A stretch of DNA of 64,000 nucleotides from Patescibacteria group bacterium (GCA_028716725.1 JAQUPG010000004.1:2680-66679), one strand, 5' to 3'; counted from the first letter of the stretch, positions 12,770 to 57,947 are shown. Numbers and translations: made by a program. The notes: generated from the letters alone by a model not told the origin.

Positions 12770-12904
12770 TTAGCCATGAACTTTATTCGCGGTTTTTCTG
12801 TTAACCTTTTTTTCAAGCATAAGCCGCTTTATTTCAAGCCGCTTCTTGGTTTTGTGGGAATGCGTTTTTCTCCTCTTCCCTACCCCGGTGCTTCTTTTTG
12901 CCAT
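12770..12904 (-). CDS. small highly basic protein (44 aa), possibly ribosome-associated
   Basis: My own translation: MAKRSTGVGKRRKTHSHKTKKRLEIKRLMLEKKVNRKTANKVHG. It is below the ORF-track size cutoff, and an AT-rich hairpin follows at about 12724-12748. Confidence 0.35.
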   Translation of the reverse strand: MAKRSTGVGKRRKTHSHKTKKRLEIKRLMLEKKVNRKTANKVHG

Positions 12905-12955
12905 ATGAATATTTTAAAAATAAATGTTAGTTTCGTTTTATACAATATAGCATCT

Positions 12956-15606: not shown

Positions 15607-15799
15607 GGTAGTAAAGATATATAAATAAAAAAACACCTGGATTTTTTAAGAATCCAGGCATTTTTATTAAAATATATTTTAAATTAAAAACTGTTATTTG
15701 GAATAACAAGTTTGGGTTTTGGGTTGGATAGTCCCCTGCTTCGCCCGCCGTAGCCCTAAGCGAAGGCGGACCTACTCCAGCTTATATCCACATAAAACA

Positions 15800-15829
15800 A
15801 AGAATTACAGAGTTAACTCTGTAATTCTT
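15800..15829. repeat. 13-bp perfect hairpin AAGAATTACAGAG/CTCTGTAATTCTT, left flank of the CRISPR-cas module
   Basis: Read directly. The outer stem AAGAATTAC/GTAATTCTT is shared with the hairpin at 19805-19840. Confidence 0.7.
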
Positions 15830-15874
15830 GTTCATTTATATACTCTCATTATACCAAAAAACGCTCATAATAAT

Positions 15875-15899
15875 AAAAACACCCTCTTGGGGTGTTTTT
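15875..15899 (-). terminator. rho-independent terminator at the distal end of the CRISPR array
   Basis: AAAAACACCC / GGGTGTTTTT, a 10-bp stem with a 5-nt loop, 33 nt beyond the last repeat in the direction of array transcription. Confidence 0.65.
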
Positions 15900-15931
15900 A
15901 TTAAACTTTTAATTACCCCCCCCCTAGGGAA

Positions 15932-16219
15932 GTCTACAAAAGTAAAAATTGGATATAGTTATTAGACCCTATCCTTTGGATAATAAATGTATATCTACGG
16001 AAGTAGAAATTGGATATAATTATTAGGCTTAAAAGCCAACTAATAATTAAATTATAATCTACAAAAGTAGAAATTGGACACAGTTATTAGACTTCAATCA
16101 GAAGCCTGCCTAAAGGCTCTATCTACAAAAGTAGAAATTGGATATAGTTATTAGACTCTCCAAAGCTAAGAAACTTTATAATAATCTACAAAAGTAGAAA
16201 TTGGATATAGTTATTAGAC
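15932..16219 (-). CRISPR. Type V-A-like CRISPR array: 5 repeats of 36 nt, 4 spacers of 25-28 nt
   Basis: Repeats at 16184-16219, 16121-16156, 16057-16092, 15993-16028 and 15932-15967. Minus-strand consensus is GTCTAATAACTATATCCAATTTCTACTTTTGTAGAT. The two cas-proximal copies are identical and the distal ones carry 2, 4 and 2 substitutions. Confidence 0.92.
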
Positions 16220-16225
16220 AGTATA

Positions 16226-16301
16226 TTTAGCTATAATTAGCCACAAAAAAATAAAATTGTGAATAAATCCAAATAAAGATTTTTTGCTAATTATAGCTAA
16301 A
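16226..16301. repeat. 16-bp perfect inverted repeat in the cas12-to-array spacer (leader)
   Basis: TTTAGCTATAATTAGC (16226-16241) and GCTAATTATAGCTAAA (16286-16301) are separated by 44 nt. Confidence 0.8.
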
Positions 16302-16372
16302 ATTCCAAATACATACATTAGGGTTTCTCTCTAATAAATATACGACAACTTCTACCAATTTTACTACTTTTA

Positions 16373-19300
16373 TTACTCATTTTTTAAAGAACACTTGGAA
16401 TGCAATTCTGCTAAGCTTTTTTTAGCAATATTATATGAAGCGACCTTATCAGAGTTATCCAATGCGATTAAATCATTCCTAGTTTTGTCCTCTTTAGTGC
16501 CAAAATTGCAATTATTATTTTTACATTTATAGGCATGGGCATTCCATTTCTGCGATTTATCGGAATTTTCTGTTCCACAACGCGGACATTTGTTGCTTGT
16601 TCCGCATGTTTCAATATAAAATATCGCTCCAATCTGATTTATCTCCTTAAAATTTTGCAAGCTCATAACTTGCTTCAAGCCGGGCGGGACAAGGGAAAGC
16701 GTTTGAAATTTTTGCAATAATTTAAATTCAATTATACTGCCCAAATAACCAGAAAATTCACTAATTCGTTGATTCTTGTTAGCCATATCTAAATTCTCAA
16801 AAGCCACTATGCCAAAATATTTTTGCTGCAAATAATTTATAACCCCGACAGCGTTAGCGCACAAGGCATTTTTTAGATGGTTGATTTTTTCTATCGAAAT
16901 TATTTCAGCATTACCGCTCTTGTTTTTAATTCCGTCGTAATAATCCTGCAATTCTTTTTGAATGGCGTCCAAAGATAAAATATTATCAAACCGATCATCG
17001 TAACAATATAAATCATCATTTTCTAGTTTCCCGCGGTTTTCAATATTTAAAAATAAACTTCCTTTATCCGCATTATAACAAATTTTATCTGATCTGAATT
17101 TATTTTTAGCTACACCTTCCCAGATTTTTCTCAAAGCGCTTACTCGTTTTGACTCCAAATAAGTAGCTATATCTCCATTTAAAATTATTTTTCCTTTCAC
17201 TATTTTAGCGCAAGATAAATCAATACACGATTTTGCTGAAATCCTTTCAATGATTCCAATGTTGTTCAGAAACTGATCAATGCTTTTATAAGCGACCCTG
17301 TTTCCACTATCTTTTGCTAAATATTTTTCTTTCTTAAGCTGATATATTTCCAGATCAATAAATTCCGGCTTGTTATATTCTCCCGGCGTTCCGTCTTGTT
17401 TAATAAATTTTATCTTTTCATTTTCTGAAAATTTAAATAAGCCGAGAGTTAAAAGCTCATCCTTTCCCCTGTCTAATCCATAATAATAAATATCAAATGG
17501 TTTTATTTTTTTGTTAAACTCGTCATTATATTCCTCAATATATTTTTTAATATCATCGGTCGTTTTGTATGATAAGTCGGTATTTTTTCCGTGAGCATTC
17601 AAAGTTATCGTAGTTGAAAGCATAAATTGTTCGTTTAACCGTCTATTTTTTTTCAATTTACCCAAATCCCTATCTTTTAATTCGTCGGGGTGTTTTTCAA
17701 CAAAATTTATTTTAAATTCTGGATTCAAACGAACTTCGTAATTCTTTTCCTCATTTCCGTCTGTCCAAAAATCAAGCCAAATTTTTGTATGAAATTCAGG
17801 GTGGCTTCTGCCAAGATGATTTTTATTTTGTAAAGACGCCAAAATTTCTGCGTCATCTTTTTCCAAATCATAACTGGTTATTTTATACAAATTTCCTTGA
17901 TAATCATTAATAATTTTCTTTTTTGTATCTTCAGAAATAGCTATTGATTTTTTGTAATAACAAGTTTTTTTAAATAATCTCTCAAAGTCAGCCAATTCTC
18001 CATATTCTTTAATCGCAAGCTCATCAAAATTTTTAAAATTATCAATCGCCAGCATTTCCTTGGTTGAGCTTAAACTTAATACCGTCTGGTAAAACTTTAA
18101 CATCTCTTTCCCGTCTTCTGAAAATTGATCTTTTCTTTTTAAATCACCATTTATAAAAAAAGAATTATCATTTTGCAGAAGTTCATTTTTAATTGCCGGC
18201 ATAAAAGTATTTTTATCCGATCCAAAGCAAAGCTTGTCCAATGCACGCAAAGTAAACGATTCGAAAGCGTACAAATTCCATTGCCCGCCATTCTCGTTTT
18301 GCAAATCGTCAATATATTTTTTGGCATTTTGAAGATTATTTTTTGCGTCTCTTGAAATGGTTAAAACATATTTTTGGTTGTCTTTTTCCAAAATCACCGC
18401 CCAAGATTGTAATTTCTCAGCATCATTTTTTTCTCTTTCTAAAGATCTAATATCCGCTTTTATTCTACCAGATTCTTTAGCAACTTTTTCATATAATAAT
18501 AAAAAATTATATAAATTTGGAAAATTTTTTTTGGCAAACTGGAAATATTTACCCCTTTTTGATCCATCGGTTTCCTTCTTAAACTTATTAAAATTCTCTT
18601 CGCTAATATCCTTCAGCAATGCTAACTCCGGATTACTCTTTAAATCTTTATAGGTTTTATTTTGATGAACAAATTCATAGAATTTGGACTTTGAATCAGC
18701 CTTAAATTTCTTCATCGCCTCTTTCAACTTATCTATAGGCAAATTTATATCCGTAAATCCGGTTCGCTTAAATAAATTCTTATCATCTTGACTAAATGAA
18801 TAATTTAATTTTAATTTATCTTTATTATTTTGTATTTCTTGTGGATAATCTTTCGGTTTTTTATTAACGATATAATAATTTAAACTTGCACGTTCAATTT
18901 CAACTCCCAACGACTGGCTTGGCAGGACCGCTTTTTCCAATAATGCAAGCAATAGCTTACATTCGTCCAATTCTTTTTTTGCAACATCAATTTTTTCATT
19001 GCTATTTTTATAGTCAATATTTCCATTGAATAACTCAAAAATGAATTCAAAATTACTTCGCTTGGTTATTTTTCTAATCCAATATGCAAACTCGGAAATT
19101 CTTTTTTGGTTTTCTTCCGGCTGATTTAAACATATTTTTAAATTAGCAATACATTCTTTATTTTCTTCAAGCCAATTTTCAAAATAATCATTTAAAAATT
19201 TTATATTGGTATTATCAATAGCAATTTTGTTACCTCGTTTTTTATTGTCCTGAATAATTTTTTCCTTCACATCAAAAAAGTCATTTTTGGTGTAATTCCT

Positions 19301-19594
19301 CAGCCAAGAATGCTTAACGGAGATATTTTTACTTAATTTTTTCTCTTCAGAATCTCTGAGCGCGGCATAAATTAATTCCCTAAAAATTTGTATGGCATGG
19401 CCATATTTATTTATAAAATTATCTATTCGCTTTCTCAAATCATCATTATTGACTATCGGCTGATAAGGCCTCTTAATTTCCTTGGGTTCAAGAATAAACC
19501 GAATCGTCTTTCTTAATTCATAAAAGTTTTGATAATCTTTCATTTTTTTATCTTGAACATTATTAATATTATTTAGCTTTAAATTATTATTCAT
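16373..19594 (-). CDS. cas12: Cas12a-like type V effector, compact variant with C-terminal zinc ribbon
   Basis: 1073 aa. Cas12a-like landmarks: FYELRKTIRFILEP, LYKITSYDL, FMLSTTITLN. RuvC-I is GLD708RG, RuvC-II is AFE933NLD, RuvC-III is D1049KVASYNIAKK. Zinc ribbon CPRC(1003-1006)..CKNNNC(1024-1029). AAGGAA RBS at 19599-19604. Lies next to an array with the Cas12a handle. Confidence 0.9.
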   Translation of the reverse strand: MNNNLKLNNINNVQDKKMKDYQNFYELRKTIRFILEPKEIKRPYQPIVNNDDLRKRIDNFINKYGHAIQIFRELIYAALRDSEEKKLSKNISVKHSWLRNYTKNDFFDVKEKIIQDNKKRGNKIAIDNTNIKFLNDYFENWLEENKECIANLKICLNQPEENQKRISEFAYWIRKITKRSNFEFIFELFNGNIDYKNSNEKIDVAKKELDECKLLLALLEKAVLPSQSLGVEIERASLNYYIVNKKPKDYPQEIQNNKDKLKLNYSFSQDDKNLFKRTGFTDINLPIDKLKEAMKKFKADSKSKFYEFVHQNKTYKDLKSNPELALLKDISEENFNKFKKETDGSKRGKYFQFAKKNFPNLYNFLLLYEKVAKESGRIKADIRSLEREKNDAEKLQSWAVILEKDNQKYVLTISRDAKNNLQNAKKYIDDLQNENGGQWNLYAFESFTLRALDKLCFGSDKNTFMPAIKNELLQNDNSFFINGDLKRKDQFSEDGKEMLKFYQTVLSLSSTKEMLAIDNFKNFDELAIKEYGELADFERLFKKTCYYKKSIAISEDTKKKIINDYQGNLYKITSYDLEKDDAEILASLQNKNHLGRSHPEFHTKIWLDFWTDGNEEKNYEVRLNPEFKINFVEKHPDELKDRDLGKLKKNRRLNEQFMLSTTITLNAHGKNTDLSYKTTDDIKKYIEEYNDEFNKKIKPFDIYYYGLDRGKDELLTLGLFKFSENEKIKFIKQDGTPGEYNKPEFIDLEIYQLKKEKYLAKDSGNRVAYKSIDQFLNNIGIIERISAKSCIDLSCAKIVKGKIILNGDIATYLESKRVSALRKIWEGVAKNKFRSDKICYNADKGSLFLNIENRGKLENDDLYCYDDRFDNILSLDAIQKELQDYYDGIKNKSGNAEIISIEKINHLKNALCANAVGVINYLQQKYFGIVAFENLDMANKNQRISEFSGYLGSIIEFKLLQKFQTLSLVPPGLKQVMSLQNFKEINQIGAIFYIETCGTSNKCPRCGTENSDKSQKWNAHAYKCKNNNCNFGTKEDKTRNDLIALDNSDKVASYNIAKKSLAELHSKCSLKNE

Positions 19595-19638
19595 AAAATT
19601 CCTTATTCATCTTTTTATCCCCCTCGCCAATCTTGACT

Positions 19639-19743
19639 TTAATTATTTTCAACGATTTTAATTTCCTCCTCTGTCAACCCGTACAACTCATAAACTTTCT
19701 AGTCAATCTCCTTATCCGTTTTTCTACTCTTATCCGGTATAAT
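19639..19743 (-). pseudogene. remnant of the C-terminal tail of a restriction-modification (type I/IIG-like) enzyme
   Basis: The minus-strand frame reads IIPDKSRKTDKEID*KVYELYGLTEEEIKIVENN*. The VYELYGLTEEEIKIVE ending is a very common R-M methyltransferase/specificity C-terminus. An in-frame stop is present and no upstream ORF. Confidence 0.5.
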
Positions 19744-19753
19744 TTACCCCAAT

Positions 19754-19782
19754 ATTCTACAACAATTAACCCTAAATGTAAA
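19754..19782 (-). promoter_or_regulatory. candidate promoter for cas12
   Basis: The minus strand reads TTTACA, 17-nt spacer, TAGAAT. It lies downstream of the terminator of the preceding gene. Confidence 0.4.
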
Positions 19783-19804
19783 TAAACACCCTCTGCCTAA
19801 AAAT

Positions 19805-19840
19805 AAAAAGAATTACGTAATTTATTACGTAATTCTTTTT
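19805..19840 (-). terminator. hairpin/terminator after 19862..20344; right flank of the CRISPR-cas module
   Basis: AAAAAGAATTACGTAAT / ATTACGTAATTCTTTTT are perfect 17-nt arms, followed by a T-run on the plus strand and preceded by an A-run. Confidence 0.65.
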
Positions 19841-20788: not shown

Positions 20789-20880
20789 TTGCTCCCGGGG
20801 TCGGATTCGAAGACTCCTCGGTGCCTTCCTCGGAGCCGAAACGGGAAACGGGGCTCGATTCAAATCCATACCCACAAAAG
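20789..20880 (-). other. duplicated tRNA 3' fragment (T-loop plus acceptor 3' strand) preceded by a GC-rich insert
   Basis: The minus strand ends ...GAGTCTTCGAATCCGACCCCGGGAGCA. The last 22 nt are identical to the 3' end of the tRNA at 20918-20939, but no matching T-stem 5' strand is present. Confidence 0.55.
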
Positions 20881-20881
20881 C

Positions 20882-20916
20882 AAAAAAAATCAGTCCGAAT
20901 TCGACTGATTTTTTTT
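20882..20916 (-). terminator. rho-independent terminator after the tRNA
   Basis: AATCAGTC / GACTGATT stem extended by flanking A and T runs, immediately 3' of the tRNA discriminator base. Confidence 0.7.
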
Positions 20917-20955
20917 GCTCCCGGGGTCGGATTCGAACCGACGACCAATTGGTTA

Positions 20956-21575
20956 CACTTATCCTCTAGTTTCCTAAAGGGGTGGACTATATCATCCCCC
21001 CACTACAATGTAGTGGGGAGCGAGGCGCTTCCGTCCCGCATTCAGCGGGAAGTACTCTCTTTCCTTATTCGCATAAAGCTATAAAGGATACAATCGAGAT
21101 AGTCTCTACACCTGCCTTGGCTAAAGCTACGGCAAGGCAATGCCTTCCCATAAACCTTAACAAAGGATTGGCTCGGGATTACCCATTTTTTAAATTAGGG
21201 CTTCCCCGAATTCACCTCGTTTTTCAACCATGATTGCTCATGGAAGCTGCGTTATGCCGTCATGCACTTCTCTGCGGCAATTAGAACAAAGCAAAATGCA
21301 TTTATCCAGTTCATCTTTCACCTGTCCCCAGCTCCTGGTATAACCTTTAGCGGAAATACCAAAATCTTTTTTATTGGAATCAAGATGGTGAAATTCTAAA
21401 GCGTTAATGCTTCGCTCGTAGCCACAAATTGCACATTTACCGCCCTTATACTCAATAGCCATCTTTCTAATCGCCTTTCTTCTTCTGTCCACGGCTTTTT
21501 TTAAGTATTCGGCACGGTCGGCGTATTTTCTTTTATCTTTTGCCATAACTCTATTATAGCAAAGATTTTGTGTCC
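20956..21575 (-). mobile_element. group I intron carrying an HNH homing-endonuclease ORF
   Basis: The 5' exon ends in U and the intron ends in G. GCAGC at 21246-21250 can form P1 with GCUGU. There is an R-like element at 21096-21112 (GGTGTAGAGACTATCTC) and an S-like element at 20984-20996 (GATGATATAGTCC), giving a P7 of GACUA/UAGUC. Confidence 0.7.
21238..21546 (-). CDS. HNH endonuclease (intron-encoded)
   Basis: 102 aa: CAICGYERSINALEFHHLDSNKKDF...CILLCSNCRREVH, i.e. CxxC..HH..N..CxxC..H. It lies wholly inside the intron. Confidence 0.8.
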   Translation of the reverse strand: MAKDKRKYADRAEYLKKAVDRRRKAIRKMAIEYKGGKCAICGYERSINALEFHHLDSNKKDFGISAKGYTRSWGQVKDELDKCILLCSNCRREVHDGITQLP

Positions 21576-21654
21576 ACAGCCAACTGCGCTACCGCTGCGC
21601 TACCCGGGAATGTATTCAATTTTCTAATTTACTAATTTTCGAATTTTCAAATTT

Positions 21655-23249: not shown

Positions 23250-25160
23250 TTATTCTCCGACCTCCCTTATCTCATCGGATAACATTTTTAGTTCTTCCAT
23301 AAGTTCCCGCGCCTTCCCCCCCTCTCCTTCTTCTTCGCAATGGGCGATTGTTCTTTCTATTTCTTTCATCCGGCGGGTTAAGTAGCATTTTTTCAGCGCC
23401 ATAACTATTTTTATGGTTTCTCCCCTGGCTTTTTCCTCGTCCAGGTCATAAAAATCTTTATCGCCCAAGAGAACCAGCCGGTCCAATAATTTAATCCGGA
23501 CATCGCCGGCATCCTCCGCCAAAGAAAGCGGAGCGGAATTTTCAGCAAACCATTTTTTCAGATCATCATAATTAATTTTTGAAAAAACTCTCGCTTCCCC
23601 GGTTTCATTTTCACTACCAATAGTATTATTATAATAAATTATTAAATCCTTGTAAAACGACTTATGGGCCGAACCAACGATTTGATCGGGCTGGATGCGG
23701 TCCACAATATAGGCCAATAAACCGGGAAACCGTATGGATAAGGCGAGCATCAGTTCGGAAAGCATTTCTTCCCGCCCCGGCCGGAATTTCTGGCCTTCCG
23801 GCTTATTTTCCGGCGTAACTGCGGCCGGCCGCCGGGGCTCTTTTTTCACCGAATTTATAAGAGTCTCCCGCAGGATATTCTCCTCCACTTCAATTTTTTC
23901 CGCCAGTTTTTTAAGCCAAAAATCCTGCTCGATTTTATTGCCCAATTTAGCCAATATCGGCAATATTTCCTTAACGGCCCGGCGCTTGTCCCCCACTTCC
24001 TCAAGATTCAGGCCGGAAAATATTTTATCAAAATAATATTCCATTATCGGCTTGGCTTCCGCCGCGGCCCGGGCCCATTCTCCGGGATTGTTTCTTATGC
24101 ATTCATCAGGATCTTTGCCGGACGGAATGATAATTATTTTTATGTTCATCTCCGCCGCCATCGCTTCCCTTATGCCCCGGTCAGACGCCATCTGCCCGGC
24201 CTTATCCATATCGAAAGCCAAGGCGATATTATTTGTGTAACGTTTCAATAAATCAACCTGCCTTTTTTGCAATTCTACCAATGGTTTTGTCCTGTCTTGT
24301 TCACCAACAAGCGCCGTGCCTGAGGAAGCGACGACATTTTTAAAATTGTTCTGATGGGCGGTAATCACGTCCATCTGGCCCTCAACAATTATAGCTAAAT
24401 CTTCATTTTTTATGGCCATTTTGGCCTTATCCAAACCGAACAAAATCCGGCTTTTGTCGTAAATCATGGTGGCCGGGCTGTTTATATATTTCCCCATTTT
24501 TTCTTCTCTCTCTTTATCCGGCCTGACCCGCGCGGAAAAAGCTACAGCCGCGCCACTGGCATCAAAAATAGGAAACATAATTCGGCCGCGGAACCGGTTA
24601 TAAAATCTTGCACTATTTTCTTTCTTCGTGGAGAGTCCTGCTAAAAATATTTCGTTTTCGGTATAACCCTTACCCTTTAATAAATTTATCAGGTCATCCC
24701 AGGACTCCGGGCTATAGCCTATCTGCCAGGACTGGATAGTTTCTTCTTTAAGCCCGCGGTTGGCTAAATACTCCCTTACGCTTTTGGCTTCTTCCCTGTC
24801 CAAAGATTTATGGTAATAATTAACCGCCGCTTCCATAATATCCAAAAGCCGGTTGCGCTGCGAAGTCAGTTTCGGATCCTGCCTTTTTAAAGTTACGCCG
24901 GCCCGGGGGGCTAAATTGCGCAAAACCTCGGCAAAGCCCAAACCCTCTATCTCCATTAAAAAAGAAAAAACGTCTCCGCCCCGGCCGCAGCCGAAACAAT
25001 GCCAGATCTGCTTTTCCGATGAAACTATAAAAGACGGGGATTTTTCCCGGTGGAAAGGGCAAAGCGCCCGAAAATTTATTCCGGCCGGCTTTAAAGGGAT
25101 GTATTCACGGATTATTTCCACAATATCCAGCCTTGATTTTATTTCTTCCGCCTGATCCAT
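23250..25160 (-). CDS. dnaG: DNA primase DnaG
   Basis: CHC2 zinc finger CPFHREKSPSF..WHCFGCGRGGD and TOPRIM IIVEGQMDVI. The start at MDQAEEIKSRLDIVEII (25160) avoids overlap with the upstream gene. Confidence 0.9.
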   Translation of the reverse strand: MDQAEEIKSRLDIVEIIREYIPLKPAGINFRALCPFHREKSPSFIVSSEKQIWHCFGCGRGGDVFSFLMEIEGLGFAEVLRNLAPRAGVTLKRQDPKLTSQRNRLLDIMEAAVNYYHKSLDREEAKSVREYLANRGLKEETIQSWQIGYSPESWDDLINLLKGKGYTENEIFLAGLSTKKENSARFYNRFRGRIMFPIFDASGAAVAFSARVRPDKEREEKMGKYINSPATMIYDKSRILFGLDKAKMAIKNEDLAIIVEGQMDVITAHQNNFKNVVASSGTALVGEQDRTKPLVELQKRQVDLLKRYTNNIALAFDMDKAGQMASDRGIREAMAAEMNIKIIIIPSGKDPDECIRNNPGEWARAAAEAKPIMEYYFDKIFSGLNLEEVGDKRRAVKEILPILAKLGNKIEQDFWLKKLAEKIEVEENILRETLINSVKKEPRRPAAVTPENKPEGQKFRPGREEMLSELMLALSIRFPGLLAYIVDRIQPDQIVGSAHKSFYKDLIIYYNNTIGSENETGEARVFSKINYDDLKKWFAENSAPLSLAEDAGDVRIKLLDRLVLLGDKDFYDLDEEKARGETIKIVMALKKCYLTRRMKEIERTIAHCEEEGEGGKARELMEELKMLSDEIREVGE

Positions 25161-25195
25161 TTTTAATTTTAGATTTAAGATTTTAGATTTAAGAT
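25161..25195. repeat. five heptamers TTWAGAT filling the gap between two genes
   Basis: ttttaat tttagat ttaagat tttagat ttaagat, sitting exactly between the dnaG start and the stop codon of 25195..25617. Confidence 0.7.
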
Positions 25196-25617
25196 TATTT
25201 CCAAAATTGCCACCAGGACTTTTTTGGTTCGGGTTTGGCTTTCTTATCATACTCTCCCGCCCTCATTCTGTCCAACAGATCGCTATCAACAGGCACATTA
25301 GCGCGGACATCCTGGTAATTGCCTAATAAACTTTTTAATCTCGCTATTTCTGCGCCCACCAATTCTCCTCCGTATTCGGCATTATGCATATGGGCGCCTT
25401 GGTAGCTCGCTTGCTTTTGGTCCAGATGCAGATTAAAAATAATCTTCTCGCCGTCCTCGTTAAAATACATATGCAGGCGCGGATAAAAATTACCCCCGAG
25501 CCGGCGGACAAAACTATCCTGGCCGCTTCGCCTGTCCCGAATATAAGCATACCCGGCTTTCCGCAGCCATTGCTCCGGCGCCGTATCAATTTGATTTTTA
25601 TTTATTATTAATTTCAT
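25195..25617 (-). CDS. hypothetical protein
   Basis: 140-aa ORF in an operon position upstream of dnaG. I recognise no motif. Confidence 0.55.
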   Translation of the reverse strand: MKLIINKNQIDTAPEQWLRKAGYAYIRDRRSGQDSFVRRLGGNFYPRLHMYFNEDGEKIIFNLHLDQKQASYQGAHMHNAEYGGELVGAEIARLKSLLGNYQDVRANVPVDSDLLDRMRAGEYDKKAKPEPKKSWWQFWK

Positions 25618-52900: not shown

Positions 52901-53561
52901 TGGCGGTAGTGATTTCGGAACCCACAGACGGCATAGCCAAAGTGGAAGTGATGACATCAGCCCATTTGAAGCGATTAGCCGTGAAAGCGGCTTCAGTCGC
53001 AACTTTGCTGGCAGTGCCATCGGCGTTGATGTAATAAACATCAGCCGCTGTCCCGAACTTTACCAAACTGCCGGTCGGGTAAGCGGTTGAGCTGATCTGG
53101 CCTGAACTAACCGTGTAGTTAGTAAAGAAAGCGTCAGGAACGTCAATAATGCGCTTGGCCCAATCAGCTCCGTAAAGGGCTAAAGCAGTCGCTTCGTCCG
53201 GAACCCATTTCAAAGTCCCGTTCGGTTCAACCGCATAGACCTTAGGATTGGTTGTGATCTTAACTAATTTAGTACCTGGCCTAACAGTGACGTTAGCTGC
53301 CAAAGGATATGACTCTAACTCGCTTTGAGGAATAGTCACAACCCCGGAGAAGTCGCTGTACCAGGAGAAATAAGTCTGTTCATTAGGGAAAACATATCTT
53401 TTACCATCGGCGCCCAAATAATAAACGGAGGAAAGTCCGTTCATCTTGATTAAGTCACCGGCAGAGGCGGCCGCGTTCACTTCCGGAACGACAACTACGC
53501 TCATAGCCAAAACTGTGACTAGCATGACGCTGATAGTAAAAACTTTTCGTATTCTACTCAT
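49926..53561 (-). CDS. very large T/S/A/G-rich cell-surface (S-layer-like) protein
   Basis: I prefer the start at MSRIRKVFTISVMLVTVLAMS (signal peptide). About 1200 aa of repeated beta-rich modules, with visibly higher GC than the neighbouring genes. Confidence 0.7.
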   Translation of the reverse strand: MSRIRKVFTISVMLVTVLAMSVVVVPEVNAAASAGDLIKMNGLSSVYYLGADGKRYVFPNEQTYFSWYSDFSGVVTIPQSELESYPLAANVTVRPGTKLVKITTNPKVYAVEPNGTLKWVPDEATALALYGADWAKRIIDVPDAFFTNYTVSSGQISSTAYPTGSLVKFGTAADVYYINADGTASKVATEAAFTANRFKWADVITSTLAMPSVGSEITTATKNDTSQGGGTGQGIVAGAGTGLTVALASDTPASATTLTDTTTAAGQAFIPVTKVNFTAAADGAVKVTTLKFKRAGVPSADTDFAEFYLYDGSTLLAKYSSISEAVLTFTNSAGLFSVPAGTTKAITLKVNLDKDTNASRAYSFSVLTAADIVTDGAAVSGSFPITGNTMSTAAVTDLGRLQVTTSGTMSNPDPGTTGQEIWKFTAASTDQKIDIERLKFTIIGTVSVGDLANFKLDVGGTQIGSTVSAMASDKTITFDFSPAYRIDKGITKTISLKADIVSGTSRTYRLYFYNKEDIVAKDVQYGVYITPNQADTWAKVSYGADVTINTGSLTISKNIASASGNVAAGATGVDVAKFDLKAVGEDIKIDSVWIHTVESTSANGLYQVKLSVDGSQVGTTQNVVETVATEFTCGNALIIPANTTKTLVVTADIKDYDGVSLTDTETITLQLGDVKSVDYTRQVTGTTGTGGVISANVLTVRTGALTSAENTSFGDRSATTPTGVASASNVKIASITLTAGPGESVTVTQISLIDFSATTLMGNNFQNLKLKNSSGTQLGNTIGNLNTSTSGSYNFSPSPAIKIAAGGQYVVDVYADVKSSAANQGYNIYGIKFASVSATGDVTNASADENPADYELQTMYIATAGNLYISDDADTPVAQQLVMGATDQEVARFKLEATASEDINITQLSVFDNVSANATGTLRNVKIYDAASPSTALGGPVQFVSDSTTSTSTLAHATIGGINLTVPAGGTKTIIVKADVSTASDGAVSGSTHTITIPAENGLTATETIVAKGASSGTVLTNAANTILYYAKSDAAGDLDQAGNRMTVYRTKVSAAWAGDSPTGATVGSSAQIIAKINITNSANAGNYTAIIKYVNLALSTTISNTADRTLTVYKDSTSTTALEATDFLASGANQNFGDTAITDDGMSDVEIAAGATKLFLFTLDTTDGNVSGDWSLSVNMAAGDIGWDDSAGSTLISVNSLPLTPKTLTY

Positions 53562-53575
53562 AATAAGTCTTTTTT

Positions 53576-53916
53576 CCCGCACCTTTTAAGCATTTGTATC
53601 GTCTTCATCACCCTCTATACTTTTTTTGATTTTTCTTTTTAACTGACTATAGGATTTCCCGAAGTGTTTCAGCTGTTTCTCTCTTTCTTTTGCATCTTCC
53701 TTAGATCTATAAGCTTCATAATAAACCAGAACTAACGGCCTTCTATGTCTTGTTGATTTTACTTTACCTTCCTTATGATACTTATTAAATCTTTCTAAAT
53801 CTTTTTAAATCTTTCTTTTAAATCATCAGAATATCCAATGTATAACTTCCTATCTTTCAAACTCTTCAGAAGGTAAACATAATACATAAAAAATACTTAT
53901 GCTTAAAAGGTGCGGG
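53576..53916 (-). mobile_element. GIY-YIG gene cassette bounded by a perfect 16-nt inverted repeat
   Basis: CCCGCACCTTTTAAGC at 53576-53591 and GCTTAAAAGGTGCGGG at 53901-53916. The same pair flanks the intact copy at the start of the window. Confidence 0.55.
53586..53887 (-). pseudogene. GIY-YIG nuclease pseudogene (frameshifted)
   Basis: MYYVYLLKSLKDRKLYIGYSDDLKERFKKI* then, in another frame, ..FNKYHKEGKVKSTRHRRPLVLVYYEAYRSKEDAKEREKQLKHFGKSYSQLKRKIKKS... The 302-nt span is not a multiple of 3. The break lies at an imperfect roughly 20-nt tandem duplication (53787-53823). Confidence 0.7.
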
Positions 53917-54359
53917 ATTTTCGCTTCTTGAATAAACCTAAATTTTAAGCAAATCAACCGGAATCCCGTCCCCCCACACTTATATATATAAGTATTTAGC
54001 TGGGGGCAAATTGCATAGGGAAATTCGCCCATCTGCCTTATCGACTTACTTGGCAGACCTCCCCCACTTAATATACATAAGTGTGGGGGTAAAATTTGTT
54101 GATTTACTAAAGAAATTTTGGTTCAAAAAGCAATTTTTATTTATTAATTTAAGTAAACCTATCCCGAGAACTCGGGACTCGACCTTGACCAGGCCTACTT
54201 GCTCCACTAATGTGGATTTGGCAATTATCCAAAAAATAATTAGCAAATCAACACTAGTTTCAAATAAAAGTCCAAGGTTCAAATGTCAAATCAATTTCAA
54301 ATGCCAAAATCCAAAACTATTTTTGGTATTGGGATTTTAACGTTTGGACTTCATAAATC

Positions 54360-55286
54360 TTACTTCTCGACTTTATATTCTTCCGTGCTGGTCGCTCCGT
54401 CGCTTGCTCCTTTCACCTCGCCCCTATCTTCCAGGCCGACATTATTCACAATATTATTGGCTTCTTCAAGTTTATTTAAAGTGCCGCCATAATCCTTCTC
54501 GTTAAAAAGCTCTTCGGCTTCTTCCAGTATTTTGTGGGCGTCTCCTAAATCAGCCGGGTGCCCACCTGCTTCTTTGGCCGGCGTATTCGTTGCTTTCTCT
54601 GCTCCTTCGGTTTTAATTATTCCAACTTCTCCGGTTTCAGTCTGGTTACTCTCCGCGACAATTTCTTCTTTCTGCGGTTCAGAAACCTGGACGCCCCGCT
54701 CTTCTCTTCCTAAATTAGCGCTAAAAACTTTATCCTCTTCACTTCCCCCTTCCGTCTTGCTTGGCGCAGCTCCCATCTCTTTGAGTTTTGTTTTCGCCAC
54801 TTTCATTTCATTCTTAAAATTTTCCGATAATTTTTCTGTTTTTGATTTCCCGGCCTCATCACCTGAATCAGTCTTGGCTAAAATTTCCGTTATGTCCTTG
54901 GCGTGGTCATTGGCAAACTTAAAACTAAGCTTGGCTTTTTTCTCCTCGCCGAAAGTAACGGCTAACTGGGCTTTCTCGCTGATAATCCTCGCTATGTACA
55001 AAGAGCTGTCCGGCTTAGTTAAGCGGGCGGCCCCGACGCTAAAAGCGCTCCCGGCCACAATCAGCAAACAAACAAAAAATACCGCCCACGCCGGAGTTGA
55101 GAAAAATCTCGCCAGCGTCCGCGGTAAAACAAAAATCTTTACCATCGCTCCGTTCTCTTTCGCGGCCGGAACAACCGTAGCCGAAATCTGGCTAAATAAA
55201 ATCGCCCGGTTTTTTTCTTTCCATTCCCTGTCCGGGGCCATTGATTTCAAGCTATTTAATTTTTCTATTAACTCTTTATTTTCCAT
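54360..55286 (-). CDS. membrane protein, putative anti-sigma factor (DUF5667-like)
   Basis: 308 aa. It overlaps the upstream sigma gene by 11 nt, has one TM helix and an E/K-rich extracytoplasmic region. Confidence 0.55.
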   Translation of the reverse strand: MENKELIEKLNSLKSMAPDREWKEKNRAILFSQISATVVPAAKENGAMVKIFVLPRTLARFFSTPAWAVFFVCLLIVAGSAFSVGAARLTKPDSSLYIARIISEKAQLAVTFGEEKKAKLSFKFANDHAKDITEILAKTDSGDEAGKSKTEKLSENFKNEMKVAKTKLKEMGAAPSKTEGGSEEDKVFSANLGREERGVQVSEPQKEEIVAESNQTETGEVGIIKTEGAEKATNTPAKEAGGHPADLGDAHKILEEAEELFNEKDYGGTLNKLEEANNIVNNVGLEDRGEVKGASDGATSTEEYKVEK

Positions 55287-55875
55287 TTTCGTTTTCCATT
55301 AATTCCCTTAAAGCTTTTAAGGCGCGGTGAAGCAGAACCCGCACGTTGTTTTTCGGCTTATCCAGGATAGCCGCCATCTCCTTTATATTTAATTCGTCAA
55401 TGAATCTTAAGATAATAACTTCCCGGTACTCGTCTTTTAATTCTTTAAGTTTCTGTTCAATTATCCCGAAATCGAAATTTATTTCCGCCTGCCTGGCAAT
55501 ATCCTGTTTCTCGTCTTTTATGTCTATCGGCTCGCCCTCTTTATTCTCAAAAGAGACTTTGCTAAAATTGGAATTTTTTCTGTAATGATCAATGATTGAA
55601 GTTCTGGCTATCTTATAAATCAAAGCCCTTAAAGTTTTAAAATCTTCTATACTGCTGTCCTGAATATAATTCCAGGTCTTTAGGAAGACGACCGAAGTCA
55701 GGTCATTAGCCTCTTCTTTGTTGCCTACTTTAAAATATACAAAACGGAATATCTGATCAACATATAAATCATAAGCTTTTATGAAAGCTTCTTTATCCCT
55801 TTTCTTTACTCCGGACAATAACTCCTTTTCCTGCTTTTTTGTAACCAAGGAATTTTGAATTTTATTAAAGTCCAT
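55276..55875 (-). CDS. RNA polymerase sigma-70 family factor, ECF subfamily
   Basis: 199 aa with region 2 (IYKIARTSIIDHYRK) and region 4 (LNIKEMAAILDKPKNNVRVLLHRALKAL). Confidence 0.85.
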   Translation of the reverse strand: MDFNKIQNSLVTKKQEKELLSGVKKRDKEAFIKAYDLYVDQIFRFVYFKVGNKEEANDLTSVVFLKTWNYIQDSSIEDFKTLRALIYKIARTSIIDHYRKNSNFSKVSFENKEGEPIDIKDEKQDIARQAEINFDFGIIEQKLKELKDEYREVIILRFIDELNIKEMAAILDKPKNNVRVLLHRALKALRELMENENGK

Positions 55876-56304
55876 TATCTCTGTTGCTTGCCTAAGTTTT
55901 TGGCTTTGGCAAGTTAATTAATTATACGTGGAAAATAAGGAAATATTACACTAAATTCTAGGGAAATAAATGGAAAAAAATAAAAAAAATTAAAGAAATA
56001 ATTCAAAAATCAGGGAAAACGGTCCCCTGCTATCAACAAAAAGAGCTAATATTAGCCCCAAAAATCTATTATTTCCTCTACTATTAACACCTATATTTAC
56101 TTTTTAAATCCTAACATATTTGATTAAATAAGGCAAATTAAGGGTAAAAATCAATAACCAATTTCCGGCTTCCGGACGATTTAACCACCCGTAAAAGATT
56201 GCCGATAAGACAGCAAATTTATAATTGAAAATTAACAATTAATAATTGTTATTTTCCCCTCTTGCTTTTTTTGAGTAATATGATAAGATATTAGAAATAA
56301 ATGG

Positions 56305-56492
56305 ACTTTAGTCTAATATATCTTAGACTTAAAGTATTATTTCTCCTTACATTAACCCATGAAAACAGCTAAAAATACCATCCATTAATCAAATTAATTA
56401 TACTTTAGTCTACAAAAACGTAGACTAAAACTAAAAAATTGTTTTATATTAGCTAATTCCATACTTTAGTCTACAAGAATGTAGACTAAAGT
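56305..56492 (+). promoter_or_regulatory. three related palindromes (candidate operators) upstream of the HTH gene
   Basis: 56305-56335: ACTTTAGTCTAA..TTAGACTTAAAGT. 56404-56429: TTTAGTCTAC-aaaaac-GTAGACTAAA. 56463-56492: ACTTTAGTCTAC-aagaat-GTAGACTAAAGT, with perfect 12-bp arms. Confidence 0.6.
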
Positions 56493-56501
56493 TGTAAAAA
56501 A

Positions 56502-56849
56502 ATGCCAAAAAAATATAAAACACGCGCCAAATCCCTTGAAACTAATAATACCGAAATTATTGAAAAACCCGGGGGAAATAATCAAAAGAATGAATATCTG
56601 CCCTTGTTAATAAAAACCATAAAAAATCCTCTCTGGCTCTCTGTGTCTGAAGCAGCTAAATTGGGCGGGGTGCAGACAAAAACAATCAGGCGGGCCATAA
56701 AATCCAATCATTTAAGGTATAAAGTTGTTGGCAACCGCTATTTAATCAATTTAGAATCTCTAATCGCTTTTTCGTATACCAAAAGAAAGCTCAAAAATAA
56801 ATTAAACCAATACGGCCTTGGCCAATACATAGAAAAATGGGGAAAATAG
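56502..56849 (+). CDS. helix-turn-helix DNA-binding protein (excisionase/MerR-type HTH)
   Basis: 115 aa. WLSVSEAAKLGGVQTKTIRRAIKSNHLRYKVVGNRYLI fits the excisionase-family HTH pattern. Confidence 0.6.
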   Translation: MPKKYKTRAKSLETNNTEIIEKPGGNNQKNEYLPLLIKTIKNPLWLSVSEAAKLGGVQTKTIRRAIKSNHLRYKVVGNRYLINLESLIAFSYTKRKLKNKLNQYGLGQYIEKWGK

Positions 56850-57437
56850 CTTAAAAATATAAAACAGGCTAACGCAATCTTTGGAAAAGAGGCTTAAACC
56901 ATAATTTTACGGTTTTAGCCTCTTTTTTATTTTATTTTTATATTATTTTATTATTTTATCAGTTATCCACAGCCAAAAATTGTAAAAAATTAAAAAATAT
57001 CTTATAATATTAACAAGGAAAAAAATTTCAAACTACTAACGTAACAACCCCATGCTTTATGTTTAGTTTTAATTGGAAAAAGGACAACTTTTTTGATAAT
57101 GCTGATAAAATTTTTTTTCAAACCCTAAATTTTAAAACTACCCGCATTATTCTTACTCAAATAATACCGGTCTAGTTTATGATGGCCGGTATTATTTTTT
57201 ATTAGTTAAAGAGGCCTTAATATATAAAAATACAAAAGGAGGATTAAAAAAATAAAAAGCTTTAAAAGGTCGATTCCATAAACTTTATTTTATGGGAAGC
57301 TCTTTTTCCTCTCTAGTATACTAAAAATTAGCAAAAATTAATGACTTATAGGCCTATTTATTAATTCTGCTAATATTAAAAAACAATCACCCTATCTGAT
57401 AATTTAATTTTAAAAGTCGATTAAATTAATTATAAGG

Positions 57438-57947
57438 GTGAACAATAAAAAAATTATGGAAAAATTTACTAAATCAAAATTGGCTGCGCAAATTGCCATA
57501 ACCTCTTTTGTCGCCGCCTTAGCTATAGTCGGCGTTGCTTACGCCACTACTATCGGGACTAATATTTCTACCACCGGAACTATGGGCGTTGGCACTTCTA
57601 CTCCTTCCGGAACCCTAGCAATAGACGTAGATGAAGCAACCAGCCCGTTTGTTATTGGCTCCTCAACCTCTACCTACTTAACAATGGACCATACGGGAAA
57701 TCTAACGGTTGATACTGATACTTTGTATGTAAGCGCTGTTAATAACAGAGTTGGTATTGGCACTTCTACGCCTAGTTTTCAACTTAGCATAGGGGCTGAT
57801 TCCGCTACTTCCACTGTTGGTATGGGAAAATTTTGTATGTATGTGCAAGACCAACACGGAGAAAATGTCTATATAACCCTTAATATGGACGCGGCCGATG
57901 CTAGCGCCGGTATTTTCGCTACTTCTACTATTGATTGCAGGCAGTAA
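57438..57947 (+). CDS. secreted/anchored protein with GxGTSTPS repeats
   Basis: 169 aa with an N-terminal TM/signal segment. Repeated MGVGTSTPSGTL / VGIGTSTPSFQL motifs, as seen in fibre-like surface proteins. The start codon is uncertain (GTG at 57438 or ATG at 57456). Confidence 0.5.
   Translation: MNNKKIMEKFTKSKLAAQIAITSFVAALAIVGVAYATTIGTNISTTGTMGVGTSTPSGTLAIDVDEATSPFVIGSSTSTYLTMDHTGNLTVDTDTLYVSAVNNRVGIGTSTPSFQLSIGADSATSTVGMGKFCMYVQDQHGENVYITLNMDAADASAGIFATSTIDCRQ

What the first reader, a model, noticed from the sequence alone, without database searches (positions are those of the whole stretch)
15875..19840. Orphan effector-plus-mini-array locus with no adaptation genes, sitting as an AT-rich island
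None of the ORFs in this 64-kb window resembles Cas1, Cas2 or Cas4.

The module consists of, in order: a candidate promoter, an R-M gene remnant, cas12, a 153-nt leader, 5 repeats and a terminator. It is wedged between a padR-pspC operon and two hypothetical membrane genes.

The cas gene and leader look clearly more AT-rich than the flanking genes. I judged this by eye and did not compute it. The repeats degenerate with distance from cas12, which fits an old array that is no longer acquiring spacers.

A minimal effector-only type V locus in a CPR-like genome is worth characterising as a unit.
Basis: partly seen in the sequence, partly recalled or inferred. Interest (0 to 1): 0.6.

Follow-up and report, generated by a model that had tools for sequence, protein, structure and literature searches.

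The report
Orphan Cas12a3 nuclease with mini-array
This is a real, self-contained 3.9-kb CRISPR cassette in a Patescibacteria (CPR) genome, with one effector gene, five repeats and no spacer-acquisition genes; its effector is not an ordinary DNA-cutting Cas12 but a member of the Cas12a3 family described in 2026, which is triggered by RNA and cuts RNA, so it is a new member of a known kind and not a new system.

Summary
A 1073-aa ORF (16373-19594, minus strand; the likely start is M18, giving 1056 aa) is followed by a 153-nt leader, five 36-nt Cas12a-type repeats (15932-16219) and a terminator. The island is 29.7% GC against 41.5% for the rest of the window. No Cas1, Cas2 or Cas4 is present in the 64 kb.

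The interpretation needs sharpening. The effector belongs to the Cas12a3 clade:
- Its only PDB sequence hits are Cas12a3.
- Foldseek TM-scores are 0.76-0.77 to Cas12a3 structures, 0.43-0.49 to Cas12a2 and about 0.3 to Cas12a.
- NJ bootstrap support for the Cas12a3 clade including this protein is 99.5%.

The RuvC triad and the zinc ribbon are intact. The protein lacks the Ba1-type tRNA-loading domain, like the Roizmanbacteria RoiCas12a3, which cleaves target RNA and has strong collateral RNase activity.

The same cassette, including the restriction-modification gene remnant, occurs at 92.6% identity in a different genomic context in another Patescibacteria MAG, again without adaptation genes. 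It was therefore transferred as a unit (cas gene dN/dS 0.34).

The two arrays share their trailer-end spacer but differ at the leader end, so "no longer acquiring" is only partly supported. More distant relatives carry cas4-cas1-cas2, sometimes next to a canonical Cas12a. No spacer target was found.

The parts
19754..19782 (-). Promoter-like site (TTTACA, 17 nt, TAGAAT) at the 5' edge of the conserved cassette
   Evidence: It is the best consensus match in the region, 10 of 12. A similar sequence occupies the same position in the sister cassette L001. Function is inferred.
19639..19743 (-). Remnant of the 3' end of an Eco57I / N6-methylase-type restriction-modification gene (IIPDKSRKTDKEID*KVYELYGLTEEEIKIVENN*)
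   Evidence: Translation. tblastn hits fall on the C-terminal ends of genes annotated Eco57I, N-6 DNA methylase or TaqI-like. The remnant is also present in L001, so it travels with the cassette.
16373..19594 (-). cas12a3 gene: the ORF is 1073 aa, and the likely real start is M18 at 19543, giving 1056 aa. The RuvC residues are D708, E933 and D1049. The zinc ribbon is C1003, C1006, C1024 and C1029. The insertion domain is short (about 826-900) and is not a Ba1-type tRLD.
   Evidence: The start codon is inferred from L001, which has stop codons upstream of the equivalent of M18.
16220..16372 (-). 153-nt leader containing a 22-bp inverted repeat (16226-16247 / 16280-16301)
   Evidence: It is 95.4% identical to the leader in L001, the best-conserved part of the cassette.
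15932..16219 (-). CRISPR mini-array: five 36-nt repeats (GTCTAATAACTATATCCAATTTCTACTTTTGTAGAT) and four spacers of 25-28 nt
   Evidence: The repeat folds into the Cas12a-type 5-bp stem with a 4-nt loop at its 3' end.
15871..15903 (-). Hairpin terminator that closes the cassette
   Evidence: It is conserved in L001. Homology to L001 ends just after it.
19805..19840 (.). Palindromic element (AAAAAGAATTACGTAAT..ATTACGTAATTCTTTTT) just outside the 5' edge of the cassette; it probably terminates the 160-aa gene
   Evidence: It is host sequence, not part of the region shared with L001. A 90%-identical copy sits at a different intergenic site in the relative L019.
15800..15829 (.). Second copy of the same palindrome family (AAGAATTACAGAGTT/AACTCTGTAATTCTT) just outside the 3' edge of the cassette
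   Evidence: The motif AGAATTAC..GTAATTCT occurs only twice in the 64 kb, both times flanking the island. An 89-93% identical copy lies elsewhere in L019.

Best explanation
The locus is a horizontally acquired, self-contained Cas12a3 cassette. It runs promoter, fossil R-M 3' end, cas12a3, leader, five-repeat array, terminator, and spans about 19787-15870 on the minus strand.

Inferred mechanism, by analogy with characterised relatives:
1. The cassette is transcribed.
2. Cas12a3 cuts its own pre-crRNA at the Cas12a-type repeats.
3. Each crRNA, a 3' repeat handle followed by the spacer, scans for complementary RNA flanked by a purine-rich PFS.
4. Target binding opens the RuvC site, which then cuts RNA and not DNA.

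This protein lacks the Ba1-type tRNA-loading domain. Its output is therefore most likely that of the tRLD-less RoiCas12a3: cleavage of the target RNA plus broad collateral RNase activity, including tRNA degradation. The expected result is growth arrest or abortive infection.

With no Cas1/2/4 in cis, the cassette acts as an immune module with a small, essentially fixed set of guides.

Shown here: the anatomy, family membership, intact catalytic residues, absence of the tRLD, foreign composition, presence of the same cassette in another genome context, and purifying selection.

Inferred: expression, crRNA processing, RNA targeting, the cleavage substrates and the physiological outcome.
For: Family membership:
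- phmmer against the PDB hits only Cas12a3 (21we 8e-67, 9hlx 9.5e-65) and no Cas12a or Cas12a2.
- blastp against labelled sequences from PMC12851939: ca3Cas12a3 56% identity over the only part of its sequence available (the first 320 aa; alignment 298 residues), MG60_9 37%, Rb2 30.7% (E 1.7e-123), Ba1 E 1e-60. In contrast, ApCas12a4 gives 6e-9, AbCas12a2 2e-6 and Cas12a about 4e-5.
- In an NJ tree, the Cas12a3 clade including this protein has 99.5% bootstrap support.
- AF2 model: pLDDT 84.9, pTM 0.79.
- Foldseek: TM 0.76-0.77 to the Cas12a3 binary complexes, 0.43-0.49 to Cas12a2 and about 0.3 to Cas12a.

Active-site features:
- The RuvC residues D708, E933 and D1049 and the zinc-ribbon cysteines are invariant across 28 homologues.
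- The repeat ends in AAUUUCUACUUUUGUAGAU and folds as a Cas12a handle.

Missing tRLD:
- The segment between conserved anchors is 118 aa here and 188-196 aa in the Ba1 group.
- The model shows only three short strands there, at 839-864.
- In the literature, tRLD-less RoiCas12a3 cleaves target ssRNA and shows high collateral RNase activity (PMC13594972). Cas12a3 is RNA-triggered, arrests growth and gives no SOS response (PMC12851939).

Mobility and selection:
- 92.6% nucleotide identity over 3.87 kb to L001, which sits in a different context between a 237-aa gene and lepA. L001 has no cas1/2/4 within 10 kb.
- The island is about 10 GC points below its host in both genomes.
- dN/dS is 0.34.
Against: - No expression or small-RNA data are available.
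- No protospacer was found, so neither RNA targeting nor the PFS can be checked.
- The subclade of this protein (at least 51% identity) has never been tested biochemically. RoiCas12a3, if it is Rb2Cas12a3, is only about 31% identical.
- The short insertion carries a subfamily-conserved motif (FxSDxIxFNADKGxLFLNIENRGKxENxxLYFYDxRF), which could be a different substrate-binding module.
- The crRNA-processing residues could not be mapped reliably onto Cas12a.
- Adaptation genes could still lie elsewhere in the genome. The NCBI source contig is about 326 kb, and only 64 kb was seen here.
Confidence: 0.8

Rival explanations
1. A canonical type V-A locus: a DNA-targeting Cas12a (Cpf1) that cuts PAM-flanked dsDNA and has simply lost its adaptation genes.
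For: - The repeat is indistinguishable from a Cas12a repeat.
- The PADLOC 'Cas12a' models match end to end at 3.5e-191.
- In relatives, the gene sits beside a canonical Cas12a and cas4/1/2.
Against: - No Pfam Cas12a domain model matches (REC1, Cpf1 PI, NUC, RuvC_1), whereas the neighbouring canonical Cas12a genes in relatives do match them.
- blastp to Cas12a gives only about 4e-5 over about 130 aa.
- TM-score is about 0.3 to Cas12a against 0.76 to Cas12a3.
- The protein has the zinc ribbon typical of Cas12a2, a3 and a4.
Confidence: 0.04
2. A tRNA-tail-specific Cas12a3 like Ba1Cas12a3: RNA-triggered removal of the 3' CCA tails of tRNAs while sparing the target RNA. In this reading the short beta-hairpin insertion acts as a minimal tRNA loader.
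For: - The clade is the same.
- Three tested orthologues (Ba1, Sm3, ca23) all cleaved tRNAs (PMC12851939).
- The short insertion is strongly conserved within the subfamily and contains a KICYN segment. By eye this resembles Ba1's KIY922GN924, but the resemblance was not supported by any alignment.
Against: - The Ba1 tRLD (855-960) is absent. R902, K881 and K885 have no counterpart.
- Deleting the tRLD abolished tRNA cleavage in Ba1 and BaCas12a3.
- The tRLD-less RoiCas12a3 cut its target RNA and showed broad collateral activity.
Confidence: 0.12
3. A decaying, non-functional relic: a stranded effector and a degenerating array on their way to loss.
For: - There are no adaptation genes.
- The distal repeats carry 2-4 mutations.
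- The array region is the most diverged part of the cassette, at 69% identity to L001.
- An R-M gene fossil lies alongside.
Against: - The ORF is intact at 1056-1073 aa in both copies, with dN/dS of 0.34.
- All catalytic and zinc-binding residues are kept.
- Four of the five mutated repeat positions spare the 3' stem. The one that falls in it (C to U in repeat 5) still allows a G-U pair, although that repeat's predicted fold is weak and no better than shuffled sequence.
- The leader is 95% conserved.
- The cassette was recently transferred or retained in two genomes.
Confidence: 0.08

Closest known systems
RoiCas12a3 and the tRLD-less clade of Cas12a3 (Li et al., NAR 2026, PMC13594972); Rb2Cas12a3 from Candidatus Roizmanbacteria in Dmytrenko et al. 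2026
   Same: - CPR host and a length of about 1050-1090 aa.
- RuvC triad, zinc ribbon and Cas12a-type repeat.
- A short insertion in place of the tRLD.
- Rb2 aligns over its full length at E 1.7e-123.
   Different: - Only 30.7% identical to Rb2.
- Rb2 has cas4-cas1-cas2 next to it; this locus has none.
- That RoiCas12a3 is Rb2Cas12a3 is my assumption. No accession for RoiCas12a3 was available.
- The activity of this subclade is untested.
Ba1Cas12a3 / BaCas12a3 (PDB 9hlx, 21we), the RNA-triggered tRNA CCA-tail nuclease
   Same: - Best structural match (TM 0.76-0.77) and the only PDB sequence matches.
- The same domain order.
- The HT(K/Q)IW..FW..RLNPE motif in the WED region, the RuvC triad and the zinc ribbon.
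   Different: - About 22-26% identity.
- About 75 residues are missing exactly where the tRLD sits.
- The residues that stack on the tRNA's terminal adenosine (R902, N924) and the basic backbone contacts (K881, K885) have no clear equivalents.
ca3Cas12a3 (Ga0070389) and MG60_9Cas12a3 from the Cas12a3 list in PMC12851939
   Same: - These are the closest labelled sequences: 56% identity to ca3 over the only part of its sequence available (the first 320 aa), and 37% over the full length of MG60_9.
- ca3 is also listed with an array and no cas1/2/4.
   Different: They are different proteins and uncharacterised. The ca3 contig is only 6.3 kb, so its orphan status is uncertain.
Cas12a2 (SuCas12a2), the RNA-triggered indiscriminate nuclease that shares arrays with Cas12a
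   Same: - It uses Cas12a repeats, has a zinc ribbon, and follows RNA-triggered abortive-infection logic.
- Relatives of this protein likewise sit beside a canonical Cas12a.
   Different: It is distant: blastp 2e-6, TM 0.43-0.49. According to PMC12851939, Cas12a3 lacks the aromatic clamp used for dsDNA shredding and triggers no SOS response.
Orphan or mini CRISPR arrays and effector-only loci on mobile elements (my own knowledge of the literature, not tested here)
   Same: A small array, no adaptation module, foreign composition, and movement between genomes.
   Different: No recombinase, phage or plasmid genes accompany it. No relatives were found in the phage, plasmid or IMG/VR collections.

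Membership tests
Cas12a3 (Dmytrenko et al. 2026; Li et al. 2026) | Falls phylogenetically within the Cas12a3 clade, separate from Cas12a, Cas12a2 and Cas12a4 | tested here: met
   - The NJ tree with labelled references gives 99.5% bootstrap support for the Cas12a3 clade including this protein.
- blastp ranks every Cas12a3 reference far above the a4, a2 and a references.
- Only one Cas12a4 and one Cas12a2 reference were included.
Cas12a3 | Three RuvC motifs with the catalytic D/E/D | tested here: met
   D708 (GLDRG), E933 (FENLD) and D1049 (NSDKVASYNIA) align with Ba1 D712, E1032 and D1137. They are invariant in 28 homologues.
Cas12a3 | Zinc-ribbon domain near the C-terminus | tested here: met
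   The cysteines are CPRC (1003-1006) and C1024/C1029. C1003, C1006 and C1029 are invariant. There is a weak Pfam zinc-ribbon hit.
Cas12a3 | Overall fold like the solved Cas12a3 structures | tested here: met
   Foldseek: 9hlx_A E 2.9e-47, TM 0.76/0.70; 21we_A TM 0.77/0.71. Model pLDDT is 84.9.
Cas12a3 | Cas12a-type repeat / crRNA 5' handle and self-processing residues | tested here: inconclusive
   - The repeat sequence and fold match.
- The HTxIW..FW..RLNPE motif is shared with Ba1, and H602 is nearly invariant.
- The alignment to Cas12a's processing residues was unreliable.
Cas12a3 (Ba1/BaCas12a3 type) | tRNA-loading domain (Ba1 residues 855-960, with R902, Y922 and N924) | tested here: not met
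   - The insertion is 118 aa against 188-196 aa in the Ba1 group.
- The model shows only a small beta element at 839-864.
- Only about 35% of the family has this domain (PMC13594972), so it defines a subgroup and not the family.
Cas12a3 | RNA-triggered RNA/tRNA cleavage with no DNA damage | not testable with these tools
   This needs biochemistry or cell assays. No protospacer was found to check even the orientation or the PFS.
Canonical Cas12a (type V-A effector) | Matches the Cas12a domain models (REC1, Cpf1 PI-like, RuvC_1, NUC) and has no zinc ribbon in the Nuc region | tested here: not met
   - No Pfam or NCBIfam Cas12a hit.
- A zinc ribbon is present.
- TM about 0.3 to Cas12a structures.
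- The PADLOC 'Cas12a' HMMs do match. I take this to mean those models cover such variants, but I did not check.
Complete CRISPR-Cas locus (adaptive) | cas1 and cas2 (plus cas4 for type V-A) adjacent to the array | tested here: not met
   - None in the 64-kb window.
- None within 10 kb of the gene in the sister locus L001.
- Relatives do have them.

The most novel reading that the evidence does not exclude
The 3.9-kb cassette may be a new kind of portable, 'hard-wired' abortive-infection unit. In this reading, a compact tRLD-less Cas12a3 with a few inherited guides spreads between CPR genomes without any recombinase or adaptation genes. Its subfamily-specific mini-insertion (residues about 833-868) would give it a substrate preference different from both Ba1Cas12a3 and RoiCas12a3. 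The spacer conserved in both copies would point to a common, still unknown target such as a widespread CPR phage.
Probability: 0.15. Interest if true: 0.6.

Novelty: new member of a known kind. Interest (0 to 1): 0.33.

Why it matters
Correct naming changes what this locus is expected to do. It should sense RNA and shut down translation or RNA metabolism, not cut invader DNA.

It adds a compact (about 1056 aa) CPR member to the tRLD-less branch of Cas12a3, for which only one protein has any biochemistry.

It also gives a clean natural example of an effector-plus-array cassette that has moved as a unit between two Patescibacteria genomes. This bears on how orphan CRISPR modules spread, and on whether a small fixed set of guides can serve as quasi-innate immunity in organisms with tiny genomes.

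For tool builders, small RNA-activated RNases with a Cas12a-type crRNA are of practical interest.

None of this is conceptually new after the 2026 papers.

Tried and rejected
- **Protospacer searches.**
  - Spacers S2, S3 and S4 and one L001 spacer (20-21-mers) had no exact match in IMG/VR.
  - S4 had no match in JGI metagenomes apart from the sister array itself.
  - There is no self-target in the window or in any fetched locus.
  - The first 20 nt of S1 match six related IMG/VR contigs, inside a 597-aa ORF, antisense to its mRNA, with TTTT upstream. The remaining 7 nt match at 0-1 positions. An AT-rich 20-mer is expected to hit a database of this size by chance roughly 0.1-3 times. I treat this hit as probably chance.
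- **Flanking palindromes as target-site duplications or IS200/IS605-like ends.** Rejected. They lie outside the segment shared with L001 and are only 74% alike. Copies sit at other intergenic sites in the relative L019/L020. They look like a dispersed family of terminator-like elements.
- **tRNA-linked integration.** A 22-nt tRNA 3' end is duplicated at 20790 and 20916, but it is about 1 kb from the island with two conserved host genes in between. No third copy exists. It is not connected to the cassette.
- **Phage or plasmid origin.** tblastn against the phage and plasmid collections found nothing, and a pattern scan of IMG/VR found no relatives.
- **Other PADLOC hits in the window** (MzaA, RT_UG29/DnaG-like, mad2/3/8, AriA/GajA-like). 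The ten largest ORFs gave nothing. At least the DnaG-like hits probably come from the housekeeping primase. The others were not located.
- **Mapping Cas12a's crRNA-processing residues by multiple alignment.** The alignment was unreliable in that region.
- **Empty site.** No island-free version of the site was found among contigs carrying the identical 160-aa protein. Only a more distant relative with different cargo was found.

Full report
**1. Checking the observation**

The region contains a single long ORF on the minus strand (16373..19594, 1073 aa).

Downstream on the same strand lie:
- a 153-nt leader (16372-16220);
- five 36-nt direct repeats at 16219-16184, 16156-16121, 16092-16057, 16028-15993 and 15967-15932, with 0, 0, 2, 4 and 2 mismatches to the first copy;
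- four spacers of 27, 28, 28 and 25 nt;
- a hairpin terminator at 15871-15903.

On the transcribed strand the repeat reads GTCTAATAACTATATCCAATTTCTACTTTTGTAGAT. It folds into the 5-bp stem and 4-nt loop at its 3' end that is typical of Cas12a-family crRNA handles.

The best sigma-70-like site in the region sits at 19782-19754. As a class, such sites were no more frequent than in shuffled sequence.

Between this site and the gene is a 33-codon fossil...IIPDKSRKTDKEID*KVYELYGLTEEEIKIVENN* (19743-19639). tblastn places it on the C-terminal ends of genes annotated as Eco57I-type, N-6 DNA methylase or TaqI-like specificity proteins.

- The island is 29.7% GC against 41.5% for the rest of the window, z = -5.2 against all other 4-kb windows.
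- The gene's GC3 is 27.9% against a mean of 45.4% for 42 other genes, z = -2.9.

No Cas1, Cas2 or Cas4 is in the window:
- A PADLOC scan of all 114 ORFs of at least 80 aa listed no such family. Only the top 25 of 69 matched families are shown, so weak single-member hits could be hidden.
- tblastn with Cas1 and Cas2 from a related locus found nothing better than E 0.04.

**2. What the effector is**

Pfam and NCBIfam do not recognise the protein.

A phmmer search of all PDB sequences returned only two hits, both Cas12a3: 21we at 8e-67 and 9hlx (Ba1Cas12a3) at 9.5e-65. No Cas12a or Cas12a2 was hit even at E up to 1.

Cas12a3 was described in 2026 (PMC12851939; PMC13594972). It is a type V nuclease related to Cas12a and Cas12a2. 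It uses Cas12a-type crRNAs, is activated by complementary RNA, and then cuts RNA and not DNA. The model enzymes cut the 3' CCA tails of tRNAs. The result is growth arrest without an SOS response.

I took labelled sequences from the Nature paper's supplementary FASTA and checked their lengths against its table. blastp against them gave:

| Reference | Result |
|---|---|
| ca3Cas12a3 | 56% identity over the first 320 aa, the only part of its sequence I had |
| MG60_9Cas12a3 | 37% identity, full length |
| Rb2Cas12a3 (Roizmanbacteria) | 30.7% identity, E 1.7e-123 |
| Sm2 | E 6e-113 |
| ca1 | E 1e-97 |
| Ba4 | E 1e-88 |
| Bd | E 3e-82 |
| Ba1 | E 1e-60 |
| ApCas12a4 | E 6e-9 |
| AbCas12a2 | E 2e-6 |
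| Cas12a | about E 4e-5 |

An NJ tree on 944 well-occupied columns puts the protein inside a Cas12a3 clade with 99.5% bootstrap support. Cas12a2, Cas12a4 and Cas12a fall outside.

An AlphaFold2 model built from 28 homologues is confident (pLDDT 84.9, pTM 0.79). Its best structural matches are:
- the Cas12a3 binary complexes, TM 0.76-0.77, E about 1e-47 to 1e-45;
- Cas12a2, TM 0.43-0.49;
- Cas12a, TM about 0.3.

The catalytic RuvC residues align with Ba1 D712, E1032 and D1137. Here they are D708, E933 and D1049, and they are invariant across the homologues. So are the zinc-ribbon cysteines C1003, C1006 and C1029, with C1024 as the fourth.

The first 17 codons of the ORF are probably not translated. 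The 90%-identical orthologue starts at the equivalent of M18 and has stop codons upstream.

**3. The tRNA-loading domain is missing**

In Ba1Cas12a3 the tRLD is residues 855-960. R902 and N924 stack on the terminal adenosine, Y922 lies next to the two cytosines, and K881 and K885 contact the backbone. I confirmed this numbering on the sequence.

Between two well-conserved anchors, the Ba1 group has 188-196 residues (Ba1 and three representatives that are 51-53% identical to it). This protein has 118. Its close relatives have 116-122. Published Cas12a3 members ca1, Bd and Ba4 have 113-133.

The model shows only a helix (809-829), three short strands (839-864) and two further helices in this region.

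The NAR paper says the same of the family in general. About 35% of Cas12a3 proteins carry the extra domain. A Roizmanbacteria protein without it, RoiCas12a3, behaves differently from BaCas12a3:
- it cleaves its target ssRNA efficiently;
- it has high collateral RNase activity;
- it degrades tRNA in a different pattern.

The window's protein therefore belongs functionally with the tRLD-less branch. Its own subclade (at least 51% identity, about 20 proteins) keeps a well-conserved short motif at this position. The role of that motif is unknown.

**4. The cassette as a unit, and its history**

The closest homologue (P0001, 90% amino-acid identity) lies on a 41-kb Patescibacteria contig, held here as L001, L007 and L012.

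blastn aligns window 19785-15933 with L001 9777-13606 at 92.6% identity. The shared segment starts at the promoter, includes the R-M fossil, and ends just after the terminator.

The surroundings are unrelated. In L001 the neighbours are MurJ and a 237-aa gene upstream, and LepA and RecJ downstream. There is no cas1/2/4 within 10 kb.

In L001 too, the island is about 10 GC points below its host, 30.0% against 40.0%.

The gene is under purifying selection (dN/dS 0.34). The leader is the best-conserved segment, at 95.4%.

At the window's own site, the closest relative found by its PspC protein (84% identity) shows this order: DUF7670, an extra 182-aa gene, the homologue of the 160-aa gene, a 448-aa gene of unknown function, PadR, PspC. 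The flanks are therefore syntenic, and the space between the 160-aa gene and padR holds different cargo. This supports insertion or replacement at a variable spot.

The two palindromes that bracket the island are the only two AGAATTAC...GTAATTCT matches in the 64 kb. They are host sequences outside the shared cassette. Copies lie at other intergenic sites in that relative. I read them as a dispersed family of terminator-like elements and not as insertion scars. How the cassette moves is not known: no recombinase accompanies it.

**5. The array**

The two arrays are positionally homologous:
- The spacer nearest the trailer, ATACATTTATTATCCAAAGGATAGG, is identical in both.
- Spacers 2 and 3 are only partly alike. 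Spacer 2 shares a 14-nt core offset by 3 nt.
- The leader-proximal spacers are unrelated.
- L001 has one more unit.

This polarity is what one sees when arrays keep changing at the leader end after they diverge.

A scan of 185,579 species-representative genomes for the repeat found two loci. One is the L001 contig. The other is a Parcubacteria contig where an array whose repeat differs at one position directly follows a cas1 fragment and cas2.

More distant relatives have full modules:
- the 52%-identical protein is followed by Bro-N, Cas4, Cas1 and Cas2;
- the 62%- and 59%-identical proteins sit beside a canonical Cas12a and an adaptation module: Cas4-Cas1-Cas2 next to the 59% protein, and Cas1-Cas2 preceded by an unannotated 181-aa gene next to the 62% protein;
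- the 53%-identical protein has none, but a serine recombinase lies nearby.

In the published table many Cas12a3 loci also lack adaptation genes. The orphan state is thus a recurrent, derived condition in this clade.

**6. Targets**

No convincing protospacer was found. Details are in the section on what was tried.

**7. Verdict**

Its identity is more specific, and functionally different from what 'cas12' implies. It is a compact Cas12a3 without the tRNA-loading domain, carried with a five-repeat array on a 3.9-kb cassette acquired by horizontal transfer.

It is most likely an RNA-triggered RNase that causes growth arrest. The step from family membership to that activity is inference.

It is a new member of a known kind. 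The transfer of the cassette as a unit and the conserved mini-insertion are the only points that go slightly beyond the 2026 literature.

Noticed in passing
window about 20916-21620 (minus strand): A tRNA gene is interrupted by a group I intron (Rfam RF00028, 20963-21305, 81.8 bits). The interrupted region also contains a 102-aa ORF with a weak HNH match (21238-21546). ARAGORN reports no tRNA anywhere in the window, probably because of the intron.
   Followed up: partly
window 20790-20811 and 20916-20937: The 22-nt 3' end of that tRNA (TTCGAATCCGACCCCGGGAGCA) is duplicated exactly, 126 nt downstream, with a terminator hairpin between the copies. The stretch 20810-20853 is 87% similar to a sequence just downstream of tRNA-Val in L001. 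It may be an old att-site scar or a tRNA-like element.
   Followed up: partly
window 15800-15829 and 19805-19840; L019 300-340 and 4876-4938: A family of AAGAATTAC...GTAATTCTT palindromes occurs at different intergenic sites in related genomes. In this window it occurs only at the two edges of the island. Neighbouring short non-coding blocks (window 15673-15714 and 12772-12923) are also rearranged in L019.
   Followed up: partly
Locus of P0005 (no DNA was retrieved); L009 4098-12409: In two relatives the Cas12a3-like gene lies next to a canonical Cas12a (1330 aa and 1074 aa) and an adaptation module: Cas4-Cas1-Cas2 in L009, and Cas1-Cas2 preceded by an unannotated 181-aa gene at the P0005 locus. 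The two effectors probably share one array, as is known for Cas12a with Cas12a2.
   Followed up: no
L019 5677-8160 / L020 5697-8180: At the site syntenic with the island, the closest relative carries a 448-aa gene with no Pfam or PADLOC match. It also has an extra 182-aa gene (faint Y1 transposase hit) between DUF7670 and the homologue of the 160-aa gene. The spot is a variable hotspot.
   Followed up: partly
window 16226-16247 / 16280-16301: The CRISPR leader contains a 22-nt inverted repeat (91% complementary, 32-nt loop) immediately upstream of the first repeat. It is conserved in L001. Its function is unknown; it could be an attenuator, part of a promoter or a binding site.
   Followed up: no
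L001 13361-13386 and 13666-13692; window 15904-15931: The leader-proximal spacer of the sister array (TTCCCCTTGGGGGTTAGTTAATATAA) resembles the sequence that follows the last repeat in both arrays (TTCCCTAGGGGGGGGGTAATTAAAAG / TCCCCTAAGGGGGTAGTTAATTAAAAG). This suggests rearrangement within the array and not fresh acquisition.
   Followed up: no
L013-L018 (IMG/VR contigs), e.g. L015 9321-9340: The first 20 nt of spacer 1 match six related viral contigs exactly. The match lies inside a 597-aa acidic ORF, antisense to its mRNA, with TTTT upstream. The last 7 nt do not match. It is probably chance.
   Followed up: yes
window, whole (PADLOC scan): Other ORFs in the window hit PADLOC defence-family models: MzaA 1e-61, RT_UG29/DnaG-like 1e-40, mad2/mad3/mad8, and AriA/GajA-like ATPases. 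The ten largest ORFs gave no hit. At least the DnaG-like hits probably come from the housekeeping primase (23253-25250).
   Followed up: partly
window 63367-63945 and about 53500-57500: Other low-GC spots: a 193-aa ORF with 27% GC (GC3 24%), and the lowest-GC 4-kb stretch outside the island, at 34% GC. These may be further foreign DNA.
   Followed up: no
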